Positions 13,453 through 52,956 of a stretch of DNA of 64,000 nt are shown here, in pieces; positions within the stretch are counted from its first letter, which is position 1; each line of letters starts with the position of its first letter. Origin of the DNA: Minisyncoccota bacterium (GTDB lineage: Bacteria; Patescibacteriota; Minisyncoccia; Phycocordibacterales; UBA9973); assembly GCA_035510575.1 (NCBI GenBank), contig DATKGV010000012.1, forward strand, positions 7,596-71,595. Reading direction: 5' to 3'. The notes under the pieces are model-generated. The model ran no database searches. It was not told where the DNA came from and saw nothing but the letters and a program-made list of their open reading frames with translations. The translations under genes and the position numbers were made by a program.

Positions 13453-13984
13453 TTTTGTCGCTTTGATTAATAACTTTTTCTAATTGAGTTTTGACTTCGG
13501 AATAATTCGGAAGCCCTTCAATTGAAGCTATGCCCATATATGAAAGCATGTCAAAGGTTGGGCGATAAAGGATGCGCCTATTATCACTGCTGTCGATTAT
13601 TTTTTCTATCAATCCTCGAACCAGCAGGTTGCGCAATATGAAGCTTGAATTTACGCCTCTGATATAATCTATTTCGCTTCTGGCAATTCCATTCTTATAA
13701 AGAATTATTGAAAGTGTTTCAAGCGAAGCTTTTGAAAGTTCTTTCGTTATTTCATCTTTGCGGATTGATTCAATAAGAGGGCTCAATTCTTTTGATATGC
13801 CCAAAACCACGCTGTCATCTTTTCTGACAAGCACCAATCCCCTATTTTCATGAGATTTTTGGAGTTTAAGAAGTGCAACTTCCACTTCTTCTTTTGTAAC
13901 TTCAAAAATCTCGGCAATTTTACTGATTGCCATATCTTCGCCCTTATAAAAAAGTAGTCCTTCAATTTTTGATTCTAATTCCAT
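13445..13984 (-). CDS. scpB: Segregation and condensation protein B.
   Basis: ScpB wHTH pattern IEGLLFYKGEDMAISKIAEI. Confidence 0.8.
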   Translation of the reverse strand: MELESKIEGLLFYKGEDMAISKIAEIFEVTKEEVEVALLKLQKSHENRGLVLVRKDDSVVLGISKELSPLIESIRKDEITKELSKASLETLSIILYKNGIARSEIDYIRGVNSSFILRNLLVRGLIEKIIDSSDNRRILYRPTFDMLSYMGIASIEGLPNYSEVKTQLEKVINQSDKND

Positions 13985-25001: not shown

Positions 25002-26066
25002 CTATTTTTGACTTTTAATTGCAAGTAAGCAAAGTTTATAGAGAATTCTTGCGCCAACATTGCCGTCCCATTCGCCTTCTTTACCCGGAGCAACTTCACA
25101 CAAATCAAAACCGATTATTTTCTTTTTTGAAGCTATAAGCTTTTCAAATAAGAACGTCATTTCTTCTATCGAAAATCCTCCGGGCATTGGCGTGCCGGTA
25201 TTTGGGCATAAATATGGCAGAAGTCCATCTATGTCAAAAGATATATAGACATTATCTGGCAAAGTTTTAATAATTTTATCGCAAACTTTTGCCCAACTAC
25301 TGCCATTAAAAATTGATTTTTTTATTTCATAATCAGTGAATATAGTCACGCGATTTTTATTTGCCTCGGCAAATTTAATTTCAGCCTCGCAACAATCTCT
25401 TACGCCAATCTGCGTAAGTTGGCTGATATTCTTAATTTTAAGAGCATTAAAGAATATTGAGGCATGAGAGTATTTCAATCCCTCATAAGCATTTCTCAAA
25501 TCGCAATGCGCGTCTATATGCAAGATTCCGAAAGATTTATATTTTTCCGAAAGCGCTTCTAGGTATCCAAGCGGCACGCTGTGATCTCCGCCGACTACTC
25601 CCGCAATTTTGCCTTCATCAAGCAATTTGGCGGTATTTTCCTTAATTGATTCTTTCAATAACAGACACTCTTTGTTTATATACTTTTGCAGATCTTTATT
25701 TACACGGCCGTCAGAATATTCGCCTAAATACTTTTCTGCCTTCTCTCTGACTTGTTTGTTTTTATAAAATATATCTGCTGGTATTTCCTGCATGGCAATT
25801 CCCATTCTCCATCCATCGGGCAAGATTGGATCATATAGATCAATTTGTTGGGAAGCGTTCAGTATTGCTTCCGGACCTTTAGATGCGCCTGTTTTATAAG
25901 AAACAGTTGCTTCCCAAGGAATTGGCACAAGTACTGCTTCCGATTCAGCCGGCAAGAATGGCAAGCCGAAAATACCGTGATCACGCAGGCCGTTTTCATT
26001 CGGATTAAATTTGGCAATTTTTTCTTTACGCGCCTTTTCTCTATTTTTTGAATTATTTTTTGTCAT
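25002..26066 (-). CDS. speB: Agmatinase (arginase/ureohydrolase family).
   Basis: Metal-binding motifs GGDHS, DAHCD, SFDIDGL. Confidence 0.75.
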   Translation of the reverse strand: MTKNNSKNREKARKEKIAKFNPNENGLRDHGIFGLPFLPAESEAVLVPIPWEATVSYKTGASKGPEAILNASQQIDLYDPILPDGWRMGIAMQEIPADIFYKNKQVREKAEKYLGEYSDGRVNKDLQKYINKECLLLKESIKENTAKLLDEGKIAGVVGGDHSVPLGYLEALSEKYKSFGILHIDAHCDLRNAYEGLKYSHASIFFNALKIKNISQLTQIGVRDCCEAEIKFAEANKNRVTIFTDYEIKKSIFNGSSWAKVCDKIIKTLPDNVYISFDIDGLLPYLCPNTGTPMPGGFSIEEMTFLFEKLIASKKKIIGFDLCEVAPGKEGEWDGNVGARILYKLCLLAIKSQK

Positions 26067-26067
26067 T

Positions 26068-27336
26068 TTAAGACAATCTCTCTTTGAAATCCTTATAGCC
26101 GAATTTCTTTATAATTTTAATCTTACCCCCGCCTGCTCCCGAACTATCGTGAGGGCGGGCAGGTTTTTTTATTATAGCAATTGAAGGAAGATTTATGCCA
26201 TTAAAAGTATTGTTCTTAACCATCGTATAAATGGCCATGTTTAAGAAAATTATTTTTTGCCCGATAGTTGAAGGTTGTGGAAAAGAGTAATCTCCTATAA
26301 CATCTCCAGTCAAACAGCTCGGGCCGACTAAGCGATAAATGTTCACATTTCCTTCTGTAGCTGATTTAGCGCCAAGAATAGTTGGTAAATAAGGCATTTC
26401 CAAGACGTCAGGCATATGAGTAGTGGCCGAGACGTCTATTACAGCGATATTCATATTATTTTTTGTTATATCAACTACGCTGCCTATTAAAATGCCAGCA
26501 TTAAGTGCTATGGCTTCACCCGGCTCTAAATAAACTTGCAAGTGCGGATATTGGGCTTTAAAATCCATGATTATCTTATTAAGAAGCGCAATATCATAGT
26601 CCTTGCGCGTAATATGATGCCCGCCGCCGAAATTAACCCATTTCATCCGAGGCAAAAATTCGCCGAATTTTTCTTCAAATACTTTAAGCGTACGCTCTAG
26701 TGCATCAGCATTAAGCTCGCAAAGATTATGAAAATGAAGGCCGTCTATGCCATCCAAATTATTTGATTCAAAATTCGTTTTGGTCACGCCGAAATGGGAA
26801 TTAGGCCTGCTTGGGTCATACATAGGATTTTCCGTTTCGCTATGTTCCACATTTACCCTGATTCCGCAAGAAATTTTCTTTTTAGAATTTTTAATAACAT
26901 TCTTAAATTTATTCCATTGCGAAAATGAATTAAAAACCATATGATCAGCGTATCTGACATATTCTTTCATATTTTCTTTAGTATATGACGGAGAAAAGAC
27001 GTGGACTTCCCCGCCGAATTTTTTATATCCTAGACGCGCTTCATTTACTGAACTTGCTTCGCTTCCTGTAAGATATTTTTTGATCAATGGGAAAACGGAA
27101 AACATAGAAAAACTTTTCAGCGCCATTATGATTTTACAGCCGGTTTTTTCTTGAACGGAAGAAAGTATTTTAAGATTATGTTCCAATCTTTCCTCGCTCA
27201 CCACATAACAGGGCGTTTCAACATCAGAAAAATCCTGCGCATTCCAGCCCTCTTCATCTACCCAAGGTTCAATAAACATATTTTCTTTTTTATCAGGCAT
27301 TTTAATTTTAATTTTTGATGCTACAAACTCTGCCAT
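26068..27336 (-). CDS. nspC: Carboxynorspermidine/carboxyspermidine decarboxylase (PLP fold III), with a repeat-encoded C-terminal extension.
   Basis: NspC-like alignment throughout: KSFSMF...NFGGGHHI...EPGEAIA...GPSCLTGDV. C-terminal tail IKKPARPHDSSGAGGGKIKIIKK is encoded by repeat A copy 2. Confidence 0.8.
   Translation of the reverse strand: MAEFVASKIKIKMPDKKENMFIEPWVDEEGWNAQDFSDVETPCYVVSEERLEHNLKILSSVQEKTGCKIIMALKSFSMFSVFPLIKKYLTGSEASSVNEARLGYKKFGGEVHVFSPSYTKENMKEYVRYADHMVFNSFSQWNKFKNVIKNSKKKISCGIRVNVEHSETENPMYDPSRPNSHFGVTKTNFESNNLDGIDGLHFHNLCELNADALERTLKVFEEKFGEFLPRMKWVNFGGGHHITRKDYDIALLNKIIMDFKAQYPHLQVYLEPGEAIALNAGILIGSVVDITKNNMNIAVIDVSATTHMPDVLEMPYLPTILGAKSATEGNVNIYRLVGPSCLTGDVIGDYSFPQPSTIGQKIIFLNMAIYTMVKNNTFNGINLPSIAIIKKPARPHDSSGAGGGKIKIIKKFGYKDFKERLS
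26125..26170. repeat. GC-rich repeat family A, copy 2 (reverse complement of copy 1), at the 3' end of nspC.
   Basis: CCCCCGCCTGCTCCCGAACTATCGTGAGGGCGGGCAGGTTTTTTT. One mismatch relative to copy 1. Confidence 0.8.
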
Positions 27337-27351
27337 GGCAGAGTTTGTAGC
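27320..27351. promoter_or_regulatory. Perfect 32-bp palindrome GCTACAAACTCTGCCATGGCAGAGTTTGTAGC centred on the nspC start codon.
   Basis: The minus-strand ATG at 27334-27336 sits in the central CCATGG. The arms would form a 14-bp stem sequestering the AUG, or a dyad-symmetric operator. Confidence 0.7.
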
Positions 27352-27362
27352 ACTTCGTTATT

Positions 27363-29030
27363 TTAATAAACTTCCTGTTGATAACACTTCTCGCAATATA
27401 TGGTTTCTGGTCGATCTGGAGAGTAGGTTGTCTCAAATTCATTCAAACAATCTTTTTTCATACACTTCCTATGCCAAAGCTTGATGGGATTTCTTTTGGA
27501 CATTCTTTCTTTGTGACGACATTCAAAATCTTTGTGAGGTGAAGGCAGATGCATTCTTTTATAAAAATCTAATTCTGCTTGTATTAGTCTGAAGTTCTTG
27601 TTGCATTCTTCACAGACCAAAATTTCATTTGTTAGATTATCTACAACATCCTCTGGCATATTTGGTATTTCACCTTTTTTAATAGTTTCTTTTCCATAAG
27701 TACCAGTCGCTTTATCTTGCCATTTGTATCCTCTTTTCATTGTTTCATCTTTATTAAGAGGAAAGAAGTCTTGAATTAGTGATTCATTATAAGCAAAAGG
27801 CGCAACTTCTGGCGGAAAGAATTGTCCAAATATGTCTTCTTTTTTGAATTGTTCCTCAATTTTTTCTTTTAAATTAAAATATTCTTCTTTTGAATATTCC
27901 TTGTTCAAGATCATATAGTTACCTTTTCTAATAGAAATACATCCTATGGCATTTGATAAATGGTGGCAATTATCACAATACTCAACTTCATTACAATAAA
28001 ACACAAAAGCTGAATTTTTAAGTCTACTACCTTCAAGAGCACCCATAATATTGTATCCGAATTCAGGTTTATAATAATAATTATTACAATCCCAACTATC
28101 TATTGGTTTTTCGGTATCTTTCATATAAGAACAATTTTTTGAATCATAAGTATCAAAGAGCATTACTCCTTCATGACAATTATGAAGATAGTCTCCGGTT
28201 ACATTATGACATTTTGTTTGTGTGGAAAATTTTACGATAGTTTCCTTTTTTAATTTTTCAAATTCTTTTTTGGCGTTTTCTATACTTTCATAATCTTTTA
28301 AAATTTCAGATTTTTTCTTATCATATTCTTCTTTACTATATTTAATATTAAAAATTGAATTAGATATATTCATTCCATTTACGCAGAAAATACAATTATT
28401 TGAATTGTGAGTGTTGTAACAGAATAACAAATCACTAGACGACTGACATTTTTCACAAAACATGCATTTAAAACATTTACGACTATCTATGCATTCATAA
28501 CATAATTCTGATTCATGAAGAAAGGCGCAGTCTACGCACTGCTTGTCTCTTTGCATTAGTCTCCCATATAGACAATCTTCATTATAATCAGAAGCGAAAA
28601 TCAGATAGCAATCTTTATTTTCAGCTGATCCATTTGTATAATCGCTTCTAACATTTTGTATAGCCACAAGACCAAGCCTAGGTACTTCAAGTTGTAATTC
28701 TCTATATTGTTCAAAAAAAGTTTTAGAAAAATCATAATCTTTTGCAAAACTTTTTGGATCCCAATCATCACTCCACCAACATTTACTACAATATACTTTA
28801 TATGGAGATTCTGGATCATAAAGTGTAATCATATCTTTTTTACATAAATCGCACGGTCTTTTATATAAGATTCTTTCGTTTCGAAAGAGTAGACGTCTAG
28901 CCATTCGGCATTCTGGACAATAAAGCGGTGAAGCTGTTTTCATTTGTTCATAAAAAACAAGGTCTTCAGGTCTAATAATGAAGTCTTGTTTGCAAGTCCG
29001 GCACACTTTTTTTTCTGATTGGTATTTCAT
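27363..29030 (-). CDS. Cys-rich multi-zinc-ribbon protein (paralog A) of a family I do not recognise, embedded in the polyamine operon.
   Basis: 555 aa with at least 10 CxxC pairs. N- and C-terminal modules resemble each other (CxxC..F.I...D..FY....P..CP.CR..R...RN...LYKR.C). Identical C-terminal YSPDRPExIYCEKCYQQEVY to the paralog at 48195..49982. Confidence 0.7.
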   Translation of the reverse strand: MKYQSEKKVCRTCKQDFIIRPEDLVFYEQMKTASPLYCPECRMARRLLFRNERILYKRPCDLCKKDMITLYDPESPYKVYCSKCWWSDDWDPKSFAKDYDFSKTFFEQYRELQLEVPRLGLVAIQNVRSDYTNGSAENKDCYLIFASDYNEDCLYGRLMQRDKQCVDCAFLHESELCYECIDSRKCFKCMFCEKCQSSSDLLFCYNTHNSNNCIFCVNGMNISNSIFNIKYSKEEYDKKKSEILKDYESIENAKKEFEKLKKETIVKFSTQTKCHNVTGDYLHNCHEGVMLFDTYDSKNCSYMKDTEKPIDSWDCNNYYYKPEFGYNIMGALEGSRLKNSAFVFYCNEVEYCDNCHHLSNAIGCISIRKGNYMILNKEYSKEEYFNLKEKIEEQFKKEDIFGQFFPPEVAPFAYNESLIQDFFPLNKDETMKRGYKWQDKATGTYGKETIKKGEIPNMPEDVVDNLTNEILVCEECNKNFRLIQAELDFYKRMHLPSPHKDFECRHKERMSKRNPIKLWHRKCMKKDCLNEFETTYSPDRPETIYCEKCYQQEVY

Positions 29031-30281
29031 TTAATAATCTTTTTTAAGCGCAGGTGGAACATCTTTAAGTTTTTTAACTGTCCAAGTTAATCCTGTCTTT
29101 GCCATTTCGTCCAAGAATATTTTTGAATCAAGCGATTCATCTTCAGTATTCTTGACTCCTGTGCCCTTCCATTTGCCTTGTAAGACAAGTTTGGCGCATG
29201 TAACCGTCGGAATGGCTGTAGTGTAGCCGATAGCATTGCCGCCGGTTTCCTTGAAAGCGCTCTCGTGGTCGCAGACATTATAAATGTAAACAACTTTTTT
29301 CTTGCCATCTTTGATGCCTGAAATAATATTGCCGATATTAGTCTTGCCTTTATAACTTTTATTGAAATCCTCGCCCTTTGGAAGTATGGCTTTCAAGAAT
29401 TTAACTGGAATAATGGATGTGCCTTGGTAATCTATAGGATCAATTCTGGTAAGCCCGACATTGTAAAGTACGCGCAAATAAGTCAAATATGTCGTTGAAA
29501 ATGTCATCCAAAAGCGAATTCTCTTCAAATCCGGCATGTGAGTCGGTATTGTCTCCATTTCTTCGTGATACATGAGATATGGGGTAAATCTGCCCGCTTC
29601 TGGAAAATCAAAATCAATATGCGAGGCATCTTCGTCGATAAGGCGCCCTCTCTCCTGCCATTTGCCGTTTTTCCAGAACTTAATCGGCAGGATTAGTTCG
29701 CGCAAATTTATTTCCGGGTCGAAATTCGGAGCAAATTTTATTTTCTTGTCTTTTGATCCGCCGTTGCAGTCCAATATGTCAATTGTGTAAACTTTATCAA
29801 AAAGATAATCGCGCGCGTAAGCCGAGAAAATATTTGAGACCCCAGGATCAAAACCGCAGCCGGTTATGGCAAGCAAATTTTTATTTTTAAAATCTTTGTC
29901 TTTGGCAAGCTGTTTGGCGTAAGAAAAGCCGTATTTATCCGGATGCTCATAGCAAGCGGTGTCTATATAGTTGACGCCATATTCCAAACAGGCATCCATG
30001 ACTTTCAAATTATCATAAGGACTTCCCCAATTTACGACAAGTCTGGGATTTACTTCTTTCAGAAGTTTCAGAAGGAATAAATCCTCGCTGACATCGCCCC
30101 GATGGATATGCAAATCCACTTTGCCGTTTGTTCTTTTTTTTATTGAATCCCTGACAGCTTCGCATTTGGCAAGCGTCCGCCCGACGACATGAATCTCGGA
30201 AAAAATATCCGGATATTGGGCCATCTTATGCAAGCCGACGCTGCCGACATTCCCGCATCCGATTACAAGTATTTTAGACAT
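29031..30281 (-). CDS. Carboxynorspermidine dehydrogenase/synthase (saccharopine dehydrogenase-like).
   Basis: N-terminal Rossmann ILVIGCGNVGS. SDH-like core. Stop abuts the start of paralog A. Confidence 0.8.
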   Translation of the reverse strand: MSKILVIGCGNVGSVGLHKMAQYPDIFSEIHVVGRTLAKCEAVRDSIKKRTNGKVDLHIHRGDVSEDLFLLKLLKEVNPRLVVNWGSPYDNLKVMDACLEYGVNYIDTACYEHPDKYGFSYAKQLAKDKDFKNKNLLAITGCGFDPGVSNIFSAYARDYLFDKVYTIDILDCNGGSKDKKIKFAPNFDPEINLRELILPIKFWKNGKWQERGRLIDEDASHIDFDFPEAGRFTPYLMYHEEMETIPTHMPDLKRIRFWMTFSTTYLTYLRVLYNVGLTRIDPIDYQGTSIIPVKFLKAILPKGEDFNKSYKGKTNIGNIISGIKDGKKKVVYIYNVCDHESAFKETGGNAIGYTTAIPTVTCAKLVLQGKWKGTGVKNTEDESLDSKIFLDEMAKTGLTWTVKKLKDVPPALKKDY

Positions 30282-30357: not shown

Positions 30358-31680
30358 GTGGTTATGGCACGAAAAATTATAATAAATAAATTCGGCGGAG
30401 GAATACTGACTAAAAAATTCATTCCGTTGATTAAGGAGCGTTTGAATGAGCAAATAAAAGCAGGTTATATGCCTGTCATTGTCGTTTCAGCAATGCATGG
30501 AATTACTGATGAAATAATCAAGTTTCTAAATAATAAAAAAATATCAGATCAATCAATTAGAGTGTTTATAAAAAATCTTAGAGATATGCATGATCAAATA
30601 ATGGCAAATATGGGTGTTAAAGTTAATTTGCAAGAAATATTTTCTAAGTTAAGGACTGTCCTTGAGGAGGCCCTCTTAAGGACAGTCCTTGCACCCGCAG
30701 ACGAAGATGAAATAGTTTCTTATGGAGAGAAATTATCGGCAGCTATTTTAACTTCTTATTTAAGCGACCTTAAATTGCCGGTAAAGAAATATTTAGCAGA
30801 AGAAATACCTATAATAACTGATGATAATTTCAAGAATGCAAATATTTTATATAAGGAATCGGAAAAAAATGTTCAAAATAAATTTCTCAATTTAAAAGAA
30901 ATACCAATTATTCCAGGTTTTACCGGCATAACTAGAGACGGGCAAACTACGACGCTTGGCCGAGGAGGCACTGATACGACTGCTTGCTTCATCGGATCTG
31001 CTCTTCAAGCTCGCAATATAATTTTATGGAAAGACGTGGCAGGCGTGTTTTCAGCCGATCCTAAAATAGTTCCCAAGGCGCGCACAATACCGTATATAAG
31101 CTACAGAGAAGCCGAGGAATCCGGCAAAGTCATTCATGAAAAAGCCATTCAATATGTTAAAATGTTTAAAACCCCGATTGAAATAACTTATATCGCAAAT
31201 CCCAAATTAAAGACAAAAATTGGCAAAATTATGGATCAGCAAAAAGGCGCCAAGATAGTCAGCTTCAAAAAAGATCTGGCTCTGATTATTATTACTGATG
31301 AAACTGCAAAAATAACGGAGCTTCTATATGAGACGAGCCGAATTTTTTCCAAATACAAAGTTGATATGATACTTATCAGCAATACCCGTTACAGCTTGCA
31401 AATCGTGGCTGATAATAACAACGGATTGCTCGATAAAGTTATTGGCGAATTAAAAGGCAACTTTTCTAAAATTGAAATTTCCAAGGTTAACATGTTTTTC
31501 TTAGTCGGCAATTTTAACGTCAAAGATGTGAATGATTTCAATGATATTTTAATCAAGCATAAAACCGGCCTCCAAATCAGCGCCTTCCTTTATGAGAATT
31601 GCACTCGGCTTGAAGCAGTGGTTAAAAGTGATAAGGTTGAAGATATTATTAGAGTTCTATATAAGAAATTTATTAAATAA
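30358..31680 (+). CDS. lysC: Aspartate kinase.
   Basis: Amino-acid kinase N-terminus IINKFGGGIL. C-terminal ACT-like region. Contains an in-frame nested palindrome encoding LRTVLEEALLRTVLA. Confidence 0.85.
   Translation: MVMARKIIINKFGGGILTKKFIPLIKERLNEQIKAGYMPVIVVSAMHGITDEIIKFLNNKKISDQSIRVFIKNLRDMHDQIMANMGVKVNLQEIFSKLRTVLEEALLRTVLAPADEDEIVSYGEKLSAAILTSYLSDLKLPVKKYLAEEIPIITDDNFKNANILYKESEKNVQNKFLNLKEIPIIPGFTGITRDGQTTTLGRGGTDTTACFIGSALQARNIILWKDVAGVFSADPKIVPKARTIPYISYREAEESGKVIHEKAIQYVKMFKTPIEITYIANPKLKTKIGKIMDQQKGAKIVSFKKDLALIIITDETAKITELLYETSRIFSKYKVDMILISNTRYSLQIVADNNNGLLDKVIGELKGNFSKIEISKVNMFFLVGNFNVKDVNDFNDILIKHKTGLQISAFLYENCTRLEAVVKSDKVEDIIRVLYKKFIK
30650..30692. repeat. Nested palindromic insert in lysC (TAAGGACTGTCCTT-GAGGAGGCCCTCTT-AAGGACAGTCCTT).
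   Basis: Two self-complementary 13-mers, AAGGAC(T/A)GTCCTT, flanking a GC-rich core. Encodes the duplicated peptide LRTVL. Confidence 0.65.
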
Positions 31681-37483: not shown

Positions 37484-37563
37484 GTAATATAATTGATAAT
37501 ATATGGGCATGTCAACCCCGTAGTAGATTTTGACATTTAAAAGGGGTTTTCATTATAAAATAT

Positions 37564-38109
37564 ATGTCAAAATTCACTACAGGGTCAAGTAAAAGCGACT
37601 ATTCCAAGAAAATATTGAAGATTTTGGCTGAAAAACCGGCAGTTTCTGTTATGGAACTTGTAGATAGGGCTTTAGGCGCTCAGATAGCGCCTAAAGCCCT
37701 ATCTACGTATGCCCTTACACGCTCGCTAAAAGGCCTTACAGAGGCAGGATTTGTTGAGAGCGTATCATCGGGTCAAAACGAATACGCGCGTCTTACAAAC
37801 GAAGGCAAGCGCAAGGCCTATAGCATAAAACTGGAATCCGGACTTGTTTCAACGAAATGGGACGGCTATTGGCGAATGATTATGCTTGATCTGCCAGAAG
37901 AACGCAAAAGCGAACGCGAGGCGCTTCGCTATCTGCTCAAAAAGGCCGGATTTGTCTGTGTTAAAAATTCTGTCTGGGTGTCTATGTACCCATATGAGAA
38001 TCTTTTCATAAATATTAAAAAAGATCTCGGTCTTACAACCGAGATGATGATACTCGTCACAGATAAAATTGACGAAGAAACAGAGAAAGAATTAATTAAG
38101 ATGTTTTAA
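37564..38109 (+). CDS. Small winged-helix regulator with a PaaX_C-like C-terminal domain.
   Basis: N-terminal wHTH ILKILAEKPAVSVMELV. C-terminal WDGYWRMIMLDLPEERKSEREALRYLLKKAGF...NSVWVS resembles the PaaX C-terminal domain. Located between grpE and dnaK. Confidence 0.45.
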   Translation: MSKFTTGSSKSDYSKKILKILAEKPAVSVMELVDRALGAQIAPKALSTYALTRSLKGLTEAGFVESVSSGQNEYARLTNEGKRKAYSIKLESGLVSTKWDGYWRMIMLDLPEERKSEREALRYLLKKAGFVCVKNSVWVSMYPYENLFINIKKDLGLTTEMMILVTDKIDEETEKELIKMF

Positions 38110-40910: not shown

Positions 40911-41519
40911 TTAACGACTATAAAATTCAAGCACAGTATTAAGATCAAGGTATCCTTCTATATTTTTAGGATTGCCCTGCATAACTCCGGAAAGCGATTC
41001 AATATTAAAAGTCAGCCAATTTGGAAGATTATATTCTTTCATTTTTTTATCCATGTCGGCGAACAACGGGCTTTTCCTGCTTCCTTCGCGGACGGCAATC
41101 ACATCGCCGATGCGAACTTGGCTAGACGGGATAGTTGTTTTTTTGCCGTTCAATATTATATGCCCGTGAGAAACCATCTGGCGGGAAAGGCGCCTAGTAT
41201 GAGCAAGCCCAAGGCGGTAAACGATATTATCAAGCCGAGTTTCAAGCAAATCAAAAAGATATTCGGTGGCCAAAACGCCCTTATGGGAAACCGCTTCTTT
41301 TACGTAATTTGAAAATTGTTTCTCGCTGAGGCCGTACATAAAGCGAACTTTCTGTTTTTCCACGAATTGCAAGGCATATCCTGAAAGAACTTTAGGCCTT
41401 TTGTTTTTAAGATTTTTGGAATGCTTGGCTTCAGACATCGTGAATTTTGGCGTCTGACATTTTTCAAATACGCCTGATCCCAAACGCCTGCAAATTTTAT
41501 ATTTTTTGACTGTTTTCAT
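40911..41519 (-). CDS. rpsD: Ribosomal protein uS4.
   Basis: N-terminus KYKICRRLG. S4 RNA-binding domain. Start placed at MKTVKK, because the ORF-track extension overlaps the intercistronic hairpin. Confidence 0.85.
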   Translation of the reverse strand: MKTVKKYKICRRLGSGVFEKCQTPKFTMSEAKHSKNLKNKRPKVLSGYALQFVEKQKVRFMYGLSEKQFSNYVKEAVSHKGVLATEYLFDLLETRLDNIVYRLGLAHTRRLSRQMVSHGHIILNGKKTTIPSSQVRIGDVIAVREGSRKSPLFADMDKKMKEYNLPNWLTFNIESLSGVMQGNPKNIEGYLDLNTVLEFYSR

Positions 41520-41529
41520 AATATTTGTT

Positions 41530-41571
41530 CCCCATGTCGGACTTGTGGTTAGCCATAAGTCCGACATGGGG
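41530..41571 (-). promoter_or_regulatory. Intercistronic hairpin between rpsK and rpsD, with a perfect 15-bp stem.
   Basis: CCCCATGTCGGACTT / AAGTCCGACATGGGG with a 12-nt loop. It starts 6 nt after the rpsK stop and ends about 10 nt before the rpsD start. Confidence 0.6.
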
Positions 41572-52047: not shown

Positions 52048-52956
52048 TTATTTGAGATATTTGGCAATATTAATCTTATGCTCTTGGAATGTTTTTGCAA
52101 AATGTATCATGCCATTCTTATCATACAGATAATACAGATATGGAGAGTCAACAGGATAAAGAGATGCGCTTATGGACATTAGCCCGGGATTTGCAATAGG
52201 TTCCGATGGAAGTCCCAATATCTTATAAGTGATAGGCGCGGCATCAACTTGAAGGGGCATGCCAAGCGAAAGGCGCTTCCAGAGAATTCCGGAAATGATT
52301 TTCATATCGCTTTCGCTGGACGCTTCATGCTCAAGTATGGAAGCCATTGTTATAATATCATTCAAGCTGTGCTTGGAATTCAAAACATCTTGGCGCAATT
52401 TTGCCGTTTGCTTGTCGAAATTATCGGATAAAACCGAGATTATTTCATCCGTGGTGGAAAGAGAAAAGAAAAAATAAGTATCCGGGAATAAATATCCCTG
52501 TTTTGCGGCGGCATTTTTATCAAATTCTTCTTTATTAAAACCAGCAATATTTTTTGACAGCAAATCGGATATCTCGCCGTTGGTCAAACCTTCCCTGATT
52601 GTAATCTTAATCGGATTAACATTATGCATTCCGTGAGCAAGATCCCATGCTACTTTAAAAAGCGGCGAATTTTTATTGAAATAATAATCGCCCCACGGTA
52701 TCTGCCTATCGCTTTTGAATAATTCAGCCAGCAATTGGAGCAAGGTTTTTGAACGAATAATATTCTTGTCTTTTAAATCATTGGATATCGCATGAAGCGA
52801 TTCTTTGGGAGAAATATGAATTGTAGTCGGATTTGAGCCGATAGGCGCTGATATTAAAGAATAATAGCCGATAATAAAGACAATCATGGCAATTAAAACA
52901 TACACACGGCTTCGGCGTGTGTATGTTTTAATTGGTTCTTTATCGGATATATCCAT
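52048..52956 (-). CDS. mltG: Endolytic murein transglycosylase MltG (YceG-like).
   Basis: N-terminal TM helix. YceG motifs GYLFPDTYFF and ASILEHEAS. Confidence 0.8.
   Translation of the reverse strand: MDISDKEPIKTYTRRSRVYVLIAMIVFIIGYYSLISAPIGSNPTTIHISPKESLHAISNDLKDKNIIRSKTLLQLLAELFKSDRQIPWGDYYFNKNSPLFKVAWDLAHGMHNVNPIKITIREGLTNGEISDLLSKNIAGFNKEEFDKNAAAKQGYLFPDTYFFFSLSTTDEIISVLSDNFDKQTAKLRQDVLNSKHSLNDIITMASILEHEASSESDMKIISGILWKRLSLGMPLQVDAAPITYKILGLPSEPIANPGLMSISASLYPVDSPYLYYLYDKNGMIHFAKTFQEHKINIAKYLK

What the first reader, a model, noticed from the sequence alone, without database searches (positions are those of the whole stretch)
27320..27351. A perfect 32-bp palindrome with the nspC start codon at its centre
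The sequence GCTACAAACTCTGCC-ATGG-CAGAGTTTGTAGC places the AUG, and the first five codons MAEFVA, inside a potential hairpin with a stem of about 14 bp. As DNA it is an ideal dyad operator. A perfect palindrome of this length is very unlikely by chance. It suggests translational or transcriptional control of the polyamine decarboxylase, for example start-codon sequestration, or a repeat-element footprint.
Basis: seen in the sequence. Interest (0 to 1): 0.55.

Follow-up and report, generated by a model that had tools for sequence, protein, structure and literature searches.

The report
Dispersed conserved palindrome, not nspC start
The perfect palindrome is real, but it is one copy of a conserved DNA repeat scattered through the genomes of tiny Paceibacteria (between genes, inside genes, and always on both sides of one small regulator-like gene), and the ATG at its centre belongs to the repeat and is not the start of the polyamine gene.

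Summary
The palindrome exists and is longer than reported: 34 bp, perfect, at 27319-27352. Simulated sequence gives arms of only 9-12 bp. Its central ATG is not the nspC start. 120 homologues begin M-x-x-x-K/x-E-N-I-F-I-E-P-W, which matches the ATG at 27300, 36 nt downstream and 18 nt past the hairpin.

The 26-bp core ACAAACTCTGCCATGGCAGAGTTTGT occurs exactly in 78 metagenome contigs. The bases flanking the core differ between copies but stay complementary. They are shared by copies within one contig.

Copies lie after genes. At least 22 lie in frame inside MiaA, ArgRS, PGK and reverse-transcriptase genes, read as TNSAMAEFV. Copies also bracket every examined copy of a conserved 158-aa protein with a winged-helix and a Cas2-like fold (PaaX-like). 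The upstream bracket copy overlaps that gene's promoter.

In the window the copy is the 3' appendage of a Cys-rich zinc-ribbon gene that was inserted between CANSDH and nspC.

Best reading: a DNA-level dyad element, probably the binding site of the PaaX-like protein, that spreads or is homogenised within genomes. It resembles REP/RAYT and Rickettsia palindromic elements but is a member of neither. Start-codon sequestration is refuted.

The parts
27319..27352 (.). Perfect 34-bp palindrome: one copy of the dispersed family, made of the 26-bp core plus this genome's 4-bp flank type TGCT/AGCA
   Evidence: identical in an independent assembly, L158
27323..27348 (.). Conserved 26-bp family core ACAAACTCTGCCATGGCAGAGTTTGT. 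General form: ACA-NNN-TCTGC-NNNN-GCAGA-NNN-TGT
   Evidence: exact in 78 metagenome contigs; variants
27334..27336 (-). ATG at the palindrome centre. It is part of the repeat's CCATGG and a spurious ORF-extending start, not the nspC initiation codon
27301..27318 (-). 18-nt A/U-rich spacer between the hairpin and the real nspC AUG. It is homologous to the spacer after the same gene-plus-palindrome unit in L114
26068..27300 (-). nspC (carboxynorspermidine decarboxylase) with the homology-supported start M13 (MPDKKENMFIEPW...)
27363..29030 (-). 555-aa Cys-rich zinc-ribbon gene, inserted between CANSDH and nspC relative to 7 relatives. The palindrome core begins 14 nt after its stop, as in its homologues elsewhere
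29031..30281 (-). Carboxynorspermidine dehydrogenase (saccharopine dehydrogenase family). Its stop abuts the ATG of the inserted gene
25002..26066 (-). Arginase-family (agmatinase-type) gene, last gene of the polyamine cluster

Best explanation
The 34-bp palindrome is one copy of a low-copy, sequence-conserved palindromic DNA element family of Paceibacteria (Patescibacteria/CPR). Its central CCATGG, and hence the 'ATG', is part of the element. nspC starts 36 nt further on. In this genome the copy is the 3' appendage of a Cys-rich zinc-ribbon gene. That gene, together with the palindrome and the short A-rich spacer, was inserted between the otherwise adjacent CANSDH and nspC genes.

Shown:
- The family has a conserved core, ACA-NNN-TCTGC-loop-GCAGA-NNN-TGT.
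- It has 4-15 bp of extra flanking stem that differs between genomes but is shared by copies within a genome.
- Copies occur after genes, in frame inside essential genes, and as an inverted pair around every examined copy of a conserved 158-aa wHTH plus Cas2-fold (PaaX-like) gene.
- The upstream bracket copy sits at a fixed 30-34 nt from that gene's ATG, so that the palindrome's last bases form the -35 position.

Inferred:
- The element acts at the DNA level as the dyad recognition site of that PaaX-like protein, giving auto-repression at its own promoter.
- Its copies are spread and/or homogenised within each genome, in a way analogous to REP sequences and their RAYT gene.
- In the window the copy would be a protein-bound or hairpin-forming boundary between the inserted gene and nspC, able to dampen read-through or reinitiation into nspC, but not a start-codon trap.

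Sub-confidences: dispersed family and not the nspC start, about 0.95. Arrived with the Cys-rich gene, about 0.8. DNA-level rather than RNA-level, about 0.7. Cognate site of the PaaX-like protein, about 0.55.
For: Start codon.

Dispersal: the exact 26-mer is in 78 contigs from more than 20 metagenomes, with variants in the same loci.

Flanks:
- Perfect complementarity extends a mean of 7.3 bp beyond the core, against 1.07 bp for mismatched flanks.
- Flank pairs are 96-100% Watson-Crick with up to four pair types; 0 of 500 shuffles reach the observed value and slid controls are far lower.
- Copies within a contig share the 4-nt flank type in 18 of 26 pairs, against 8.8% between contigs.

DNA-level rather than RNA-level:
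- G.U pairs are almost absent in the covarying stem.
- On the sense strand the first non-pair is G.U 8 times and A.C 9 times.
- There is no U-tract enrichment after gene ends.
- 5' bracket copies lie upstream of the -10 box and so outside the transcript.

PaaX-like partner:
- 22 adjacencies in the palindrome-selected sample (13 at 30-35 nt from the ATG), and second bracket copies were then found with relaxed patterns in every module re-examined.
- An unbiased test gave 3 of 3 genes picked from the protein search bracketed.
- Copies with an asymmetric loop are in inverted orientation (L001, L163).
- The protein matches Pfam PaaX_M at 2e-12 and Cas2 at 1e-4. Its fold matches Rv0674/PaaX, wHTH repressors and Cas2. 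There are 1199 homologues, the 120 closest listed being 73-100% identical.

In-frame copies: MiaA, ArgRS, DGR-type RT, PGK and the FolD tail, always in the TNSAMAEFV frame. The MiaA site is filled in 56, empty in 32 and occupied by other palindromes in 23 of 117 orthologues.

Window context:
- CANSDH is directly followed by nspC in L001, L003, L006, L081-L083 and the P0017 contig.
- Cys-rich homologues of 35-40% identity carry the palindrome at the same 12-14 nt after their stop.
Against: - No binding data exist. A 26-bp strictly conserved site is longer than a typical wHTH operator.
- A pure operator model does not explain in-frame copies inside coding sequences, nor why non-contacted flank bases remain complementary.
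- The cognate PaaX-like gene is not in the 64-kb window. Only a 40%-identical paralogue is present, at 37564-38109, so its presence in this genome is unverified.
- The first sample was selected for an exact 26-mer, which inflates apparent conservation.
- The geometry in the window (22 nt from core to nspC ATG) differs from the 30-34 nt at the PaaX-like promoter, so a promoter-operator role for nspC itself is not supported.
- No target-site duplication or transposase was found, so the way copies spread is unknown.
Confidence: 0.6

Rival explanations
1. Selfish mobile palindromic element (MITE- or RPE-like) with no host function. It inserts into permissive sites, including surface loops of proteins and gene ends. 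The PaaX/Cas2-fold gene with its two inverted terminal copies is the autonomous unit or mobilising factor. The copy beside nspC is a neutral footprint.
For: - Presence/absence polymorphism at the same MiaA loop, with 56 filled and 32 empty.
- The same loop is hit by an unrelated second palindrome family, verified on DNA in L165 and L166.
- The core has no stop codon in any frame, and in-frame copies occur in 5 protein families.
- Genome-specific flank subtype.
- The bracketed module has inverted terminal copies and sits in at least 4 different genomic contexts.
- The Cas2-like domain keeps an invariant Asp after beta-1.
Against: - Low copy number: about 1 per 64 kb here, and only the two bracket copies in three 13-20 kb loci.
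- No transposase fold. The best matches are transcription regulators.
- No target-site duplication was seen.
- No copies in viral contigs, phages or plasmids.
- The position after the Cys-rich gene is conserved across homologues only 35-40% identical. This looks like ancient retention plus homogenisation rather than recent hopping.
- A decaying selfish insert inside genes would not keep an exact 26-nt core.
Confidence: 0.25
2. RNA-level element: an intercistronic or 3'-end stem-loop that terminates transcription or protects the upstream mRNA from 3' exonucleases, setting the expression ratio between the Cys-rich gene and nspC.
For: - Very stable RNA hairpin: -26.3 kcal/mol, z = -7.7.
- It lies 10 nt after a stop codon.
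- Many intergenic copies lie at gene 3' ends: 17 between co-directional genes and 16 between convergent genes.
- Some copies have A-run/T-run flanks like bidirectional terminators, for example L098, L105 and L136.
- Long perfect-palindrome terminator-like hairpins are common in these genomes.
Against: - The sense-strand tail in the window is UCAAAAAUUA, with 3 U in 10. Across the family the T count after the stem is 4.27 on strands with an upstream gene end and 4.31 on other strands.
- G.U pairs are almost absent, and there is no G.U over A.C excess on the sense strand.
- 13 copies lie upstream of the -10 box of the PaaX-like gene, where they are not transcribed from that promoter.
- At least 22 copies sit inside essential coding sequences, where termination would be harmful.
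- A terminator needs no conserved sequence.
Confidence: 0.12
3. One reading: the hairpin sequesters the nspC start codon, or is a dedicated operator for polyamine control.
For: - The ATG at the centre opens the longest ORF.
- In one other lineage (L001) a PaaX-like module with its palindromes lies directly upstream of CANSDH-nspC, so a second association with the polyamine cluster exists.
Against: - Homologue N-termini place the start at 27300, and that AUG is unpaired in the fold.
- 7 relatives have CANSDH abutting nspC, or separated by unrelated sequence, without this element.
- The same element occurs in about 80 unrelated contexts.
- The genome essentially lacks SD-led initiation.
Confidence: 0.03
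4. Chance or assembly/vector artefact, for example an inverted chimera or a linker carrying an NcoI site.
For: Perfect zero-spacer palindromes can arise from inverted-chimera artefacts. The centre is an NcoI site.
Against: - Complementarity stops after 17 bp per arm, and both flanks continue co-linear genes.
- An identical 2567-bp stretch is present in an independent JGI assembly.
- There are 78 contigs from many projects.
- There is no match in plasmids or phages.
- Simulations give arms of at most 12 bp.
Confidence: 0.01

Closest known systems
REP/REPIN sequences with their RAYT gene (REPtrons) of Proteobacteria
   Same: Short palindromic DNA repeats dispersed mostly at gene ends. A single conserved associated gene is bracketed by two copies in inverted orientation. 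Each genome has its own sequence subtype. The hairpin-type constraint shows as variable positions that stay complementary.
   Different: The associated protein is a wHTH plus Cas2-fold (PaaX-like) protein, not a Y1 (IS200/IS605-type) transposase. There is no conserved GTAG head. The palindrome is perfect, without bulges. Copy number is low. About a quarter of sampled copies lie in frame inside coding sequences. The host clade is Paceibacteria.
Rickettsia palindromic elements (RPE)
   Same: [quoted passage not shown] Copies also occur in intergenic DNA.
   Different: RPEs are 100-150 bp and restricted to Rickettsia, have no sequence relation to this element and have no known associated gene. 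Here the insert is 27-57 nt with a strictly conserved 26-bp core.
Conserved operator/regulator pairs such as CIRCE/HrcA, or PaaX and its palindromic operator
   Same: A highly conserved inverted repeat is paired with a conserved wHTH regulator. The repeat overlaps the regulator's own promoter at a fixed distance. The protein fold matches PaaX-family regulators.
   Different: Known operators are not inserted into coding sequences, do not keep variable flanks complementary and do not bracket the regulator gene on both sides. Binding has not been tested here.
Intrinsic terminators and intercistronic stabiliser hairpins
   Same: A stable stem-loop placed a few nucleotides after a stop codon.
   Different: The window copy has no U-tract on the sense strand. 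The family core is conserved in sequence. Copies occur within genes and upstream of promoters.

Membership tests
REP/REPIN-RAYT system | Short palindromic repeat dispersed at many chromosomal sites | tested here: met
   Exact core in 78 contigs, with several contigs holding 2-3 copies
REP/REPIN-RAYT system | Associated gene flanked by two copies in inverted orientation | tested here: met
   22 modules in the first sample, plus 3 of 3 unbiased picks; inverted orientation is visible in L001 and L163
REP/REPIN-RAYT system | Associated gene is a Y1 tyrosine transposase (RAYT) | tested here: not met
   Pfam PaaX_M and Cas2; fold matches PaaX/Rv0674, wHTH repressors and Cas2
REP/REPIN-RAYT system | Conserved GTAG-type tetranucleotide at the foot of the hairpin | tested here: not met
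   Bases next to the core vary (TGCT, CTAT, GGAT, TACT, GGAC and others)
REP/REPIN-RAYT system | Extragenic location only | tested here: not met
   At least 22 of 78 copies are in frame inside coding sequences
Rickettsia palindromic elements | In-frame insertion of a palindromic repeat into conserved protein genes | tested here: met
   MiaA, ArgRS, PGK, DGR-type RT; filled and empty MiaA alleles
Rickettsia palindromic elements | Element of about 100-150 bp belonging to the RPE sequence families of Rickettsia | tested here: not met
   Insert is 27-57 nt; host is Paceibacterota. No alignment to RPE sequences was run; the lack of sequence relation rests on the size, the host and recall of the RPE literature
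Intrinsic (Rho-independent) terminator | Stem-loop followed by a U-tract on the transcribed strand | tested here: not met
   Window sense-strand tail is UCAAAAAUUA. Across the family the T count is 4.27 against 4.31. Only the antisense strand scores as terminator-like
Start-codon or RBS-sequestering translational hairpin | The genuine initiation codon or RBS lies within the helix | tested here: not met
   The homology-supported AUG at 27300 is 18 nt 3' of the helix and unpaired; the genome lacks SD motifs
Autoregulatory operator of a PaaX-family wHTH regulator | Dyad site overlapping the regulator's own promoter at a fixed position | tested here: met
   Core ends 30-34 nt before the ATG, with a TATAAT box 17 nt downstream of the terminal TTGT
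Autoregulatory operator of a PaaX-family wHTH regulator | Specific binding of the protein to the site | not testable with these tools
   Needs EMSA, footprinting or DAP-seq
MITE derived from an insertion sequence | Terminal inverted repeats with target-site duplication and a cognate transposase | tested here: inconclusive
   The element is itself one palindrome. No duplication was seen at module ends in L162 or L163. No transposase-like protein was found

The most novel reading that the evidence does not exclude
Paceibacteria (CPR) carry a REPtron-like system in which a Cas2-fold/winged-helix protein, rather than a tyrosine transposase, recognises, maintains and spreads a conserved palindromic DNA element. 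The element serves as the protein's own operator and has been written, in frame, into essential genes such as miaA, argS and pgk. It is one of several palindromic element families that colonise coding sequences in these minimal genomes.
Probability: 0.25. Interest if true: 0.8.

Novelty: new variant of a known kind. Interest (0 to 1): 0.62.

Why it matters
For annotation: the element's built-in ATG creates false N-terminal extensions (MAEFV...) on whatever gene lies downstream. Examples are nspC here and the PaaX-like genes in public databases. Its in-frame copies add a recurrent TNSAMAEFV peptide to housekeeping enzymes.

For biology: it points to an undescribed repeat-and-protein partnership in the Candidate Phyla Radiation. 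No match was found in Rfam, in the four profile libraries used or in the searchable literature. The partnership combines traits of REP/RAYT systems, Rickettsia in-gene palindromes and classical operators, and it involves a Cas2-fold protein outside CRISPR.

It offers a concrete, testable handle on gene regulation and genome dynamics in organisms that are almost entirely uncultured: one protein and one 34-bp DNA.

Tried and rejected
- Start-codon sequestration was rejected from the N-termini of 120 homologues and the fold.
- Canonical terminator: the + strand scan flags the hairpin, but the sense strand has no U-tract and the family shows no U enrichment.
- Known RNA family: the Rfam E-value scan gave only chance-level miRNA and sRNA hits.
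- Other copies or half-sites in the window: none beyond chance.
- Phage, plasmid or viral origin: no hits with the exact or the degenerate core.
- Conserved hairpin specific to the CANSDH-nspC junction: L081 and L082 have unrelated hairpins there, while L001, L003, L006 and P0017 have almost no spacer. There is therefore no conserved regulatory structure for nspC.
- Target-site duplications at module ends: none convincing.
- RNA-strand signature from G.U against A.C: no bias.
- Other window palindromes as dispersed families: only the GC-rich nspC insert recurs in the held loci.
- Sequence search of solved structures gave only marginal Cas2 hits, E about 0.1.
- Six literature searches found no description of this element.
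- One contig look-up failed (P0135) and one returned no DNA (P0017).
Full report
**1. The observation**

The stretch 27319-27352 reads TGCTACAAACTCTGCCA|TGGCAGAGTTTGTAGCA. It is a perfect palindrome of 34 bp, two more than reported. It is unique in the window. In 20 Markov-1 simulations of the window, the longest perfect arm with a loop of 8 nt or less was 9-12 bp, against 17 bp here. As RNA on the coding (minus) strand it folds at -26.3 kcal/mol (z = -7.7). As single-stranded DNA it folds at -16.6 kcal/mol. An independent JGI assembly, L158, is 100% identical over 2567 bp including the palindrome, so it is not an assembly artefact.

**2. The central ATG is not the nspC start**

All genes here are on the minus strand:
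- CANSDH, 29031-30281.
- A 555-aa Cys-rich zinc-ribbon ORF, 27363-29030.
- The NspC ORF, 26068-27336.
- An arginase-family gene, 25002-26066.

The longest NspC ORF begins at the palindrome's ATG (MAEFVASKIKIK-MPDKKENMFIEPW...). Of 120 homologues, nearly all begin M-S/P-x-x-x-E-N-I-F-I-E-P-W. P0017 reads MPDNKENIFIEPW, a near-perfect match to M13 of the ORF. NCBI's call for the identical protein starts at M20 (P0001).

The start is therefore the ATG at 27300-27298. That is 36 nt downstream of the palindrome centre and 18 nt past the helix, and it is unpaired in the predicted fold. The genome also shows a Shine-Dalgarno core upstream of only 1 of 49 long ORFs. Many genes instead have a TATAAT box 7-12 nt before the ATG. 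A classical RBS/AUG-sequestering hairpin is therefore not the expected mode of control.

**3. Local context: an inserted gene**

In seven relatives CANSDH is directly followed by nspC. These are L001, L003 and L006 from genomes, and L081-L083 and the P0017 contig from metagenomes. The gap is 1 to about 150 nt and, where present, contains unrelated sequence. The Cys-rich gene is thus an insertion in this lineage. Its ATG abuts the CANSDH stop, and the palindrome follows its own stop by 10 nt.

Homologues of this gene, only 35-40% identical, occur in other contigs. Those in L100, L114 and L146 carry the same palindrome core 12-14 nt after the stop (L132 and L140 at 39 nt), but in front of different downstream genes: RuvC, an ABC ATPase, a membrane protein or a convergent gene. 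In L114 the similarity to the window continues through the A-rich spacer up to the next ATG. The palindrome therefore belongs to the Cys-rich gene unit, not to nspC.

**4. A dispersed, conserved family**

The 26-mer ACAAACTCTGCCATGGCAGAGTTTGT is found exactly in 78 metagenome contigs from more than 20 samples. It is absent from viral contigs, phages and plasmids.

Relaxed searches in the held loci reveal the general form ACA-NNN-TCTGC-NNNN-GCAGA-NNN-TGT:
- The inner triplets change symmetrically: AAC/GTT, ATC/GAT, TTC/GAA, TTT/AAA, CTT/AAG.
- The central four bases vary: CATG, ACGT, TATA, and the non-palindromic AGGT/ACCT.

Outside the core the sequence differs between copies but remains complementary. 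Perfect pairing continues for a mean of 7.3 bp, against 1.07 bp for mismatched flanks. In a formal count, flank pairs are 96-100% Watson-Crick with three or four pair types; 0 of 500 shuffles reach the observed covariation, and slid controls are far lower. Copies in the same contig share the same 4-nt flank type in 18 of 26 pairs, against 8.8% between contigs. Each genome therefore has its own subtype.

**5. Where the copies sit**

*(a) Inside genes.* At least 22 of 78 unique copies lie in frame within long ORFs, always read as TNSAMAEFV:
- MiaA: 14-16 loci, at the same loop.
- ArgRS: 3 loci.
- A DGR-type reverse transcriptase: 3 loci.
- PGK and the tail of FolD.

Among 117 MiaA orthologues, the loop carries the family insert in 56. 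The central residue is M 26, G 13, P 10, R 5, H 1 and I 1, meaning different loops and both loop orientations. The loop is empty in 32, holds a second, unrelated palindrome family in 17, and holds a third insert in 6. The second family (CTTTCCCATAGGTC-A-GACCTATGGGAAAG in L165, with a compensated variant in L166) and an empty site (L167) were verified on DNA.

*(b) Around the PaaX-like gene.* The palindrome-selected sample held 22 adjacencies to the 158-aa gene MSIVxEILEELWNTE...: 13 at its 5' end, 30-35 nt from the ATG, and 9 at its 3' end. The second, often variant, copy was then found on the other side in the modules re-examined. In an unbiased check, three such genes taken from the protein search rather than from the palindrome search were all bracketed (L162, L163, L164). 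Where the loop is asymmetric (L001, L163) the two copies are exact or near-exact reverse complements, that is, terminal inverted repeats.

The bracketed module occurs in at least four genomic contexts:
- Next to tmk, dut, argS, glyA, thyA and folA, the commonest context.
- Next to EF-G.
- Next to L20/IF3.
- In L001, directly upstream of CANSDH-nspC.

*(c) Other intergenic copies.* These lie mostly at gene ends (17 between co-directional genes, 16 convergent, 9 divergent, 7 co-directional on the other strand). Examples are after a NUDIX gene (5), after the Cys-rich gene (6) and after PGK (3).

**6. The partner protein**

Pfam gives PaaX_M (the Cas2-like central domain) at 2e-12 and Cas2 at 1e-4, plus a weak wHTH match. 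The AlphaFold model (pLDDT 81.6) best matches Rv0674 and E. coli PaaX overall, CggR/MntR/MarR-type winged helices for the N-terminal half, and Cas2 for the C-terminal half. There are 1199 homologues, essentially all labelled Paceibacterota, Nomurabacteria or Parcubacteria. The 120 closest are 73-100% identical to the query. An Asp after beta-1 (D96) is invariant. That it matches the metal-binding Asp of Cas2 is my inference.

At the 5' copies, the last bases of the core (TTGT plus flank) lie 17 nt upstream of a TATAAT box that ends about 8 nt before the ATG. A protein bound to the palindrome would therefore occlude the -35 region. This is the classical geometry of auto-repression, and also of IS transposase promoters inside terminal repeats.

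**7. DNA or RNA?**

Several results point to a DNA-level constraint:
- G.U pairs are nearly absent in the covarying stem.
- On the sense strand the first non-pair is G.U 8 times and A.C 9 times.
- U-tracts are not enriched after the stem on strands with an upstream gene end: 4.27 against 4.31 T per 10 nt.
- The 5' bracket copies lie upstream of the -10 box.
- Rfam has no match.

The retention of complementarity at non-conserved positions suggests one of three things: hairpin or cruciform recognition, palindrome-perfecting template switching, or copying from a genome-specific master. The within-genome sharing of flank type favours the third, or gene conversion.

**8. Interpretation**

Firmly shown:
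- The palindrome is real.
- It is one copy of a conserved dispersed family.
- Its ATG is intrinsic to the repeat.
- nspC starts downstream.
- The copy came with an inserted Cys-rich gene.

Inferred, about 0.55: the family is the recognition site of the PaaX-like protein. That protein represses its own promoter through the upstream copy, and the copies are spread or homogenised within genomes, in analogy to REP/RAYT.

For nspC, the expected consequence is at most a boundary effect: a stable stem-loop or protein roadblock between the inserted gene and nspC. This is not tested.

Rivals:
- A purely selfish RPE/MITE-like element, 0.25.
- An RNA terminator or stabiliser, 0.12.
- An artefact, 0.01.

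**9. Comparison and novelty**

The system shares with REP/RAYT the bracketed gene, the dispersal and the genome-specific subtype. It fails the defining tests: no Y1 transposase, no GTAG head, and it is not purely extragenic. It shares in-frame colonisation of housekeeping genes with Rickettsia palindromic elements, but differs in size and host. It shares promoter-overlapping dyad geometry with PaaX- and HrcA-type operators, but operators do not sit inside genes or keep variable flanks complementary.

No description was found in six literature searches. I rate it a new variant of a known kind. The original claim about nspC is ordinary and wrong, but what underlies it is of real interest.

Noticed in passing
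window 37515-38109: A 181-aa PaaX-like paralogue (wHTH plus Cas2-like, about 40% identical over the Cas2-like part) sits between dnaK and grpE. A 25-nt-arm inverted repeat (37515-37539 / 37561-37585) spans its -35 TTGACA and its ATG. A different, GC-rich, near-perfect palindrome (about 37657-37703; GTAGATAGGGCTTTAGGCGCT-CAGAT-AGCGCCTAAAGCCCTATCTAC) lies in frame inside its winged-helix coding region.
   Followed up: partly
window 26126-26163 (minus strand, inside nspC): A 38-nt GC-rich in-frame insert (CCTGCCCGCCCTCACGATAGTTCGGGAGCAGGCGGGGG, read as PARPHDSSGAGGG) is absent from the NspC consensus. It recurs with 1-4 mismatches in L118 and L098, and a similar peptide (PARPPLSGAGGG) is inserted in the MiaA of L111. 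This is a second dispersed in-gene element.
   Followed up: partly
whole window (49 ORFs of 150 aa or more): Only 1 of 49 genes has a GGAG/GAGG/AGGA core upstream. Many have a TATAAT box ending 7-12 nt before the ATG, suggesting an SD-less organism with largely leaderless or very short-leader mRNAs. No paper on this was found for Patescibacteria in the held library.
   Followed up: partly
window 52890-52934; 30651-30690; 41530-41571; 13852-13912: Further long palindromes lie inside coding sequences: 19-bp perfect arms in ORF 52048-52956, and one in the probable aspartokinase 30364-31680. One (41530-41571, 19-bp arms, 95% complementary) covers the start codon of ORF 40911-41567. None recurs in the held loci.
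   Followed up: partly
L165 and L166 (MiaA loop), L167 (empty site): The same MiaA surface-loop site that hosts the TNSAMAEFV element hosts an unrelated palindrome family in other genomes: CTTTCCCATAGGTC-A-GACCTATGGGAAAG in L165 and a compensated variant in L166. A third insert type (TSN..GCTS) also occurs. The site is a hot spot for palindromic insertions.
   Followed up: yes
L001 3082-3647: In a GTDB Patescibacteria MAG, the PaaX-like gene with its two inverted palindromes lies directly upstream of CANSDH-nspC-agmatinase. This is a second, independent juxtaposition of the element with the polyamine cluster, and it may or may not be meaningful.
   Followed up: no
L162 9860-9940: Upstream of the 5' bracket copy there are three tandem partial repeats of the left half-site (GATACAAACTCAT, period about 14 nt). 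This is iteron-like and suggests multiple protein-binding half-sites.
   Followed up: no
L089, L121, L148: DGR-type reverse transcriptases (motif GLPLGNLTSQ) carry the palindrome in frame just before that motif.
   Followed up: no
L164 and L113, L130, L134, L151: The usual home of the PaaX-like module is a thymidylate/folate gene neighbourhood: tmk, dut, dcd, thyA, folA, glyA, NUDIX and argS, with Cys-rich zinc-ribbon genes nearby. This hints at a nucleotide-metabolism regulon or at local spread of the element.
   Followed up: partly
L081 4912-5000; L082 4966-4991: Some relatives have unrelated hairpins in the CANSDH-nspC spacer: 20-nt arms in L081 and CAGATAGAGGC-CTT-GCCTCTATCTG in L082. Others have no spacer at all.
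   Followed up: partly
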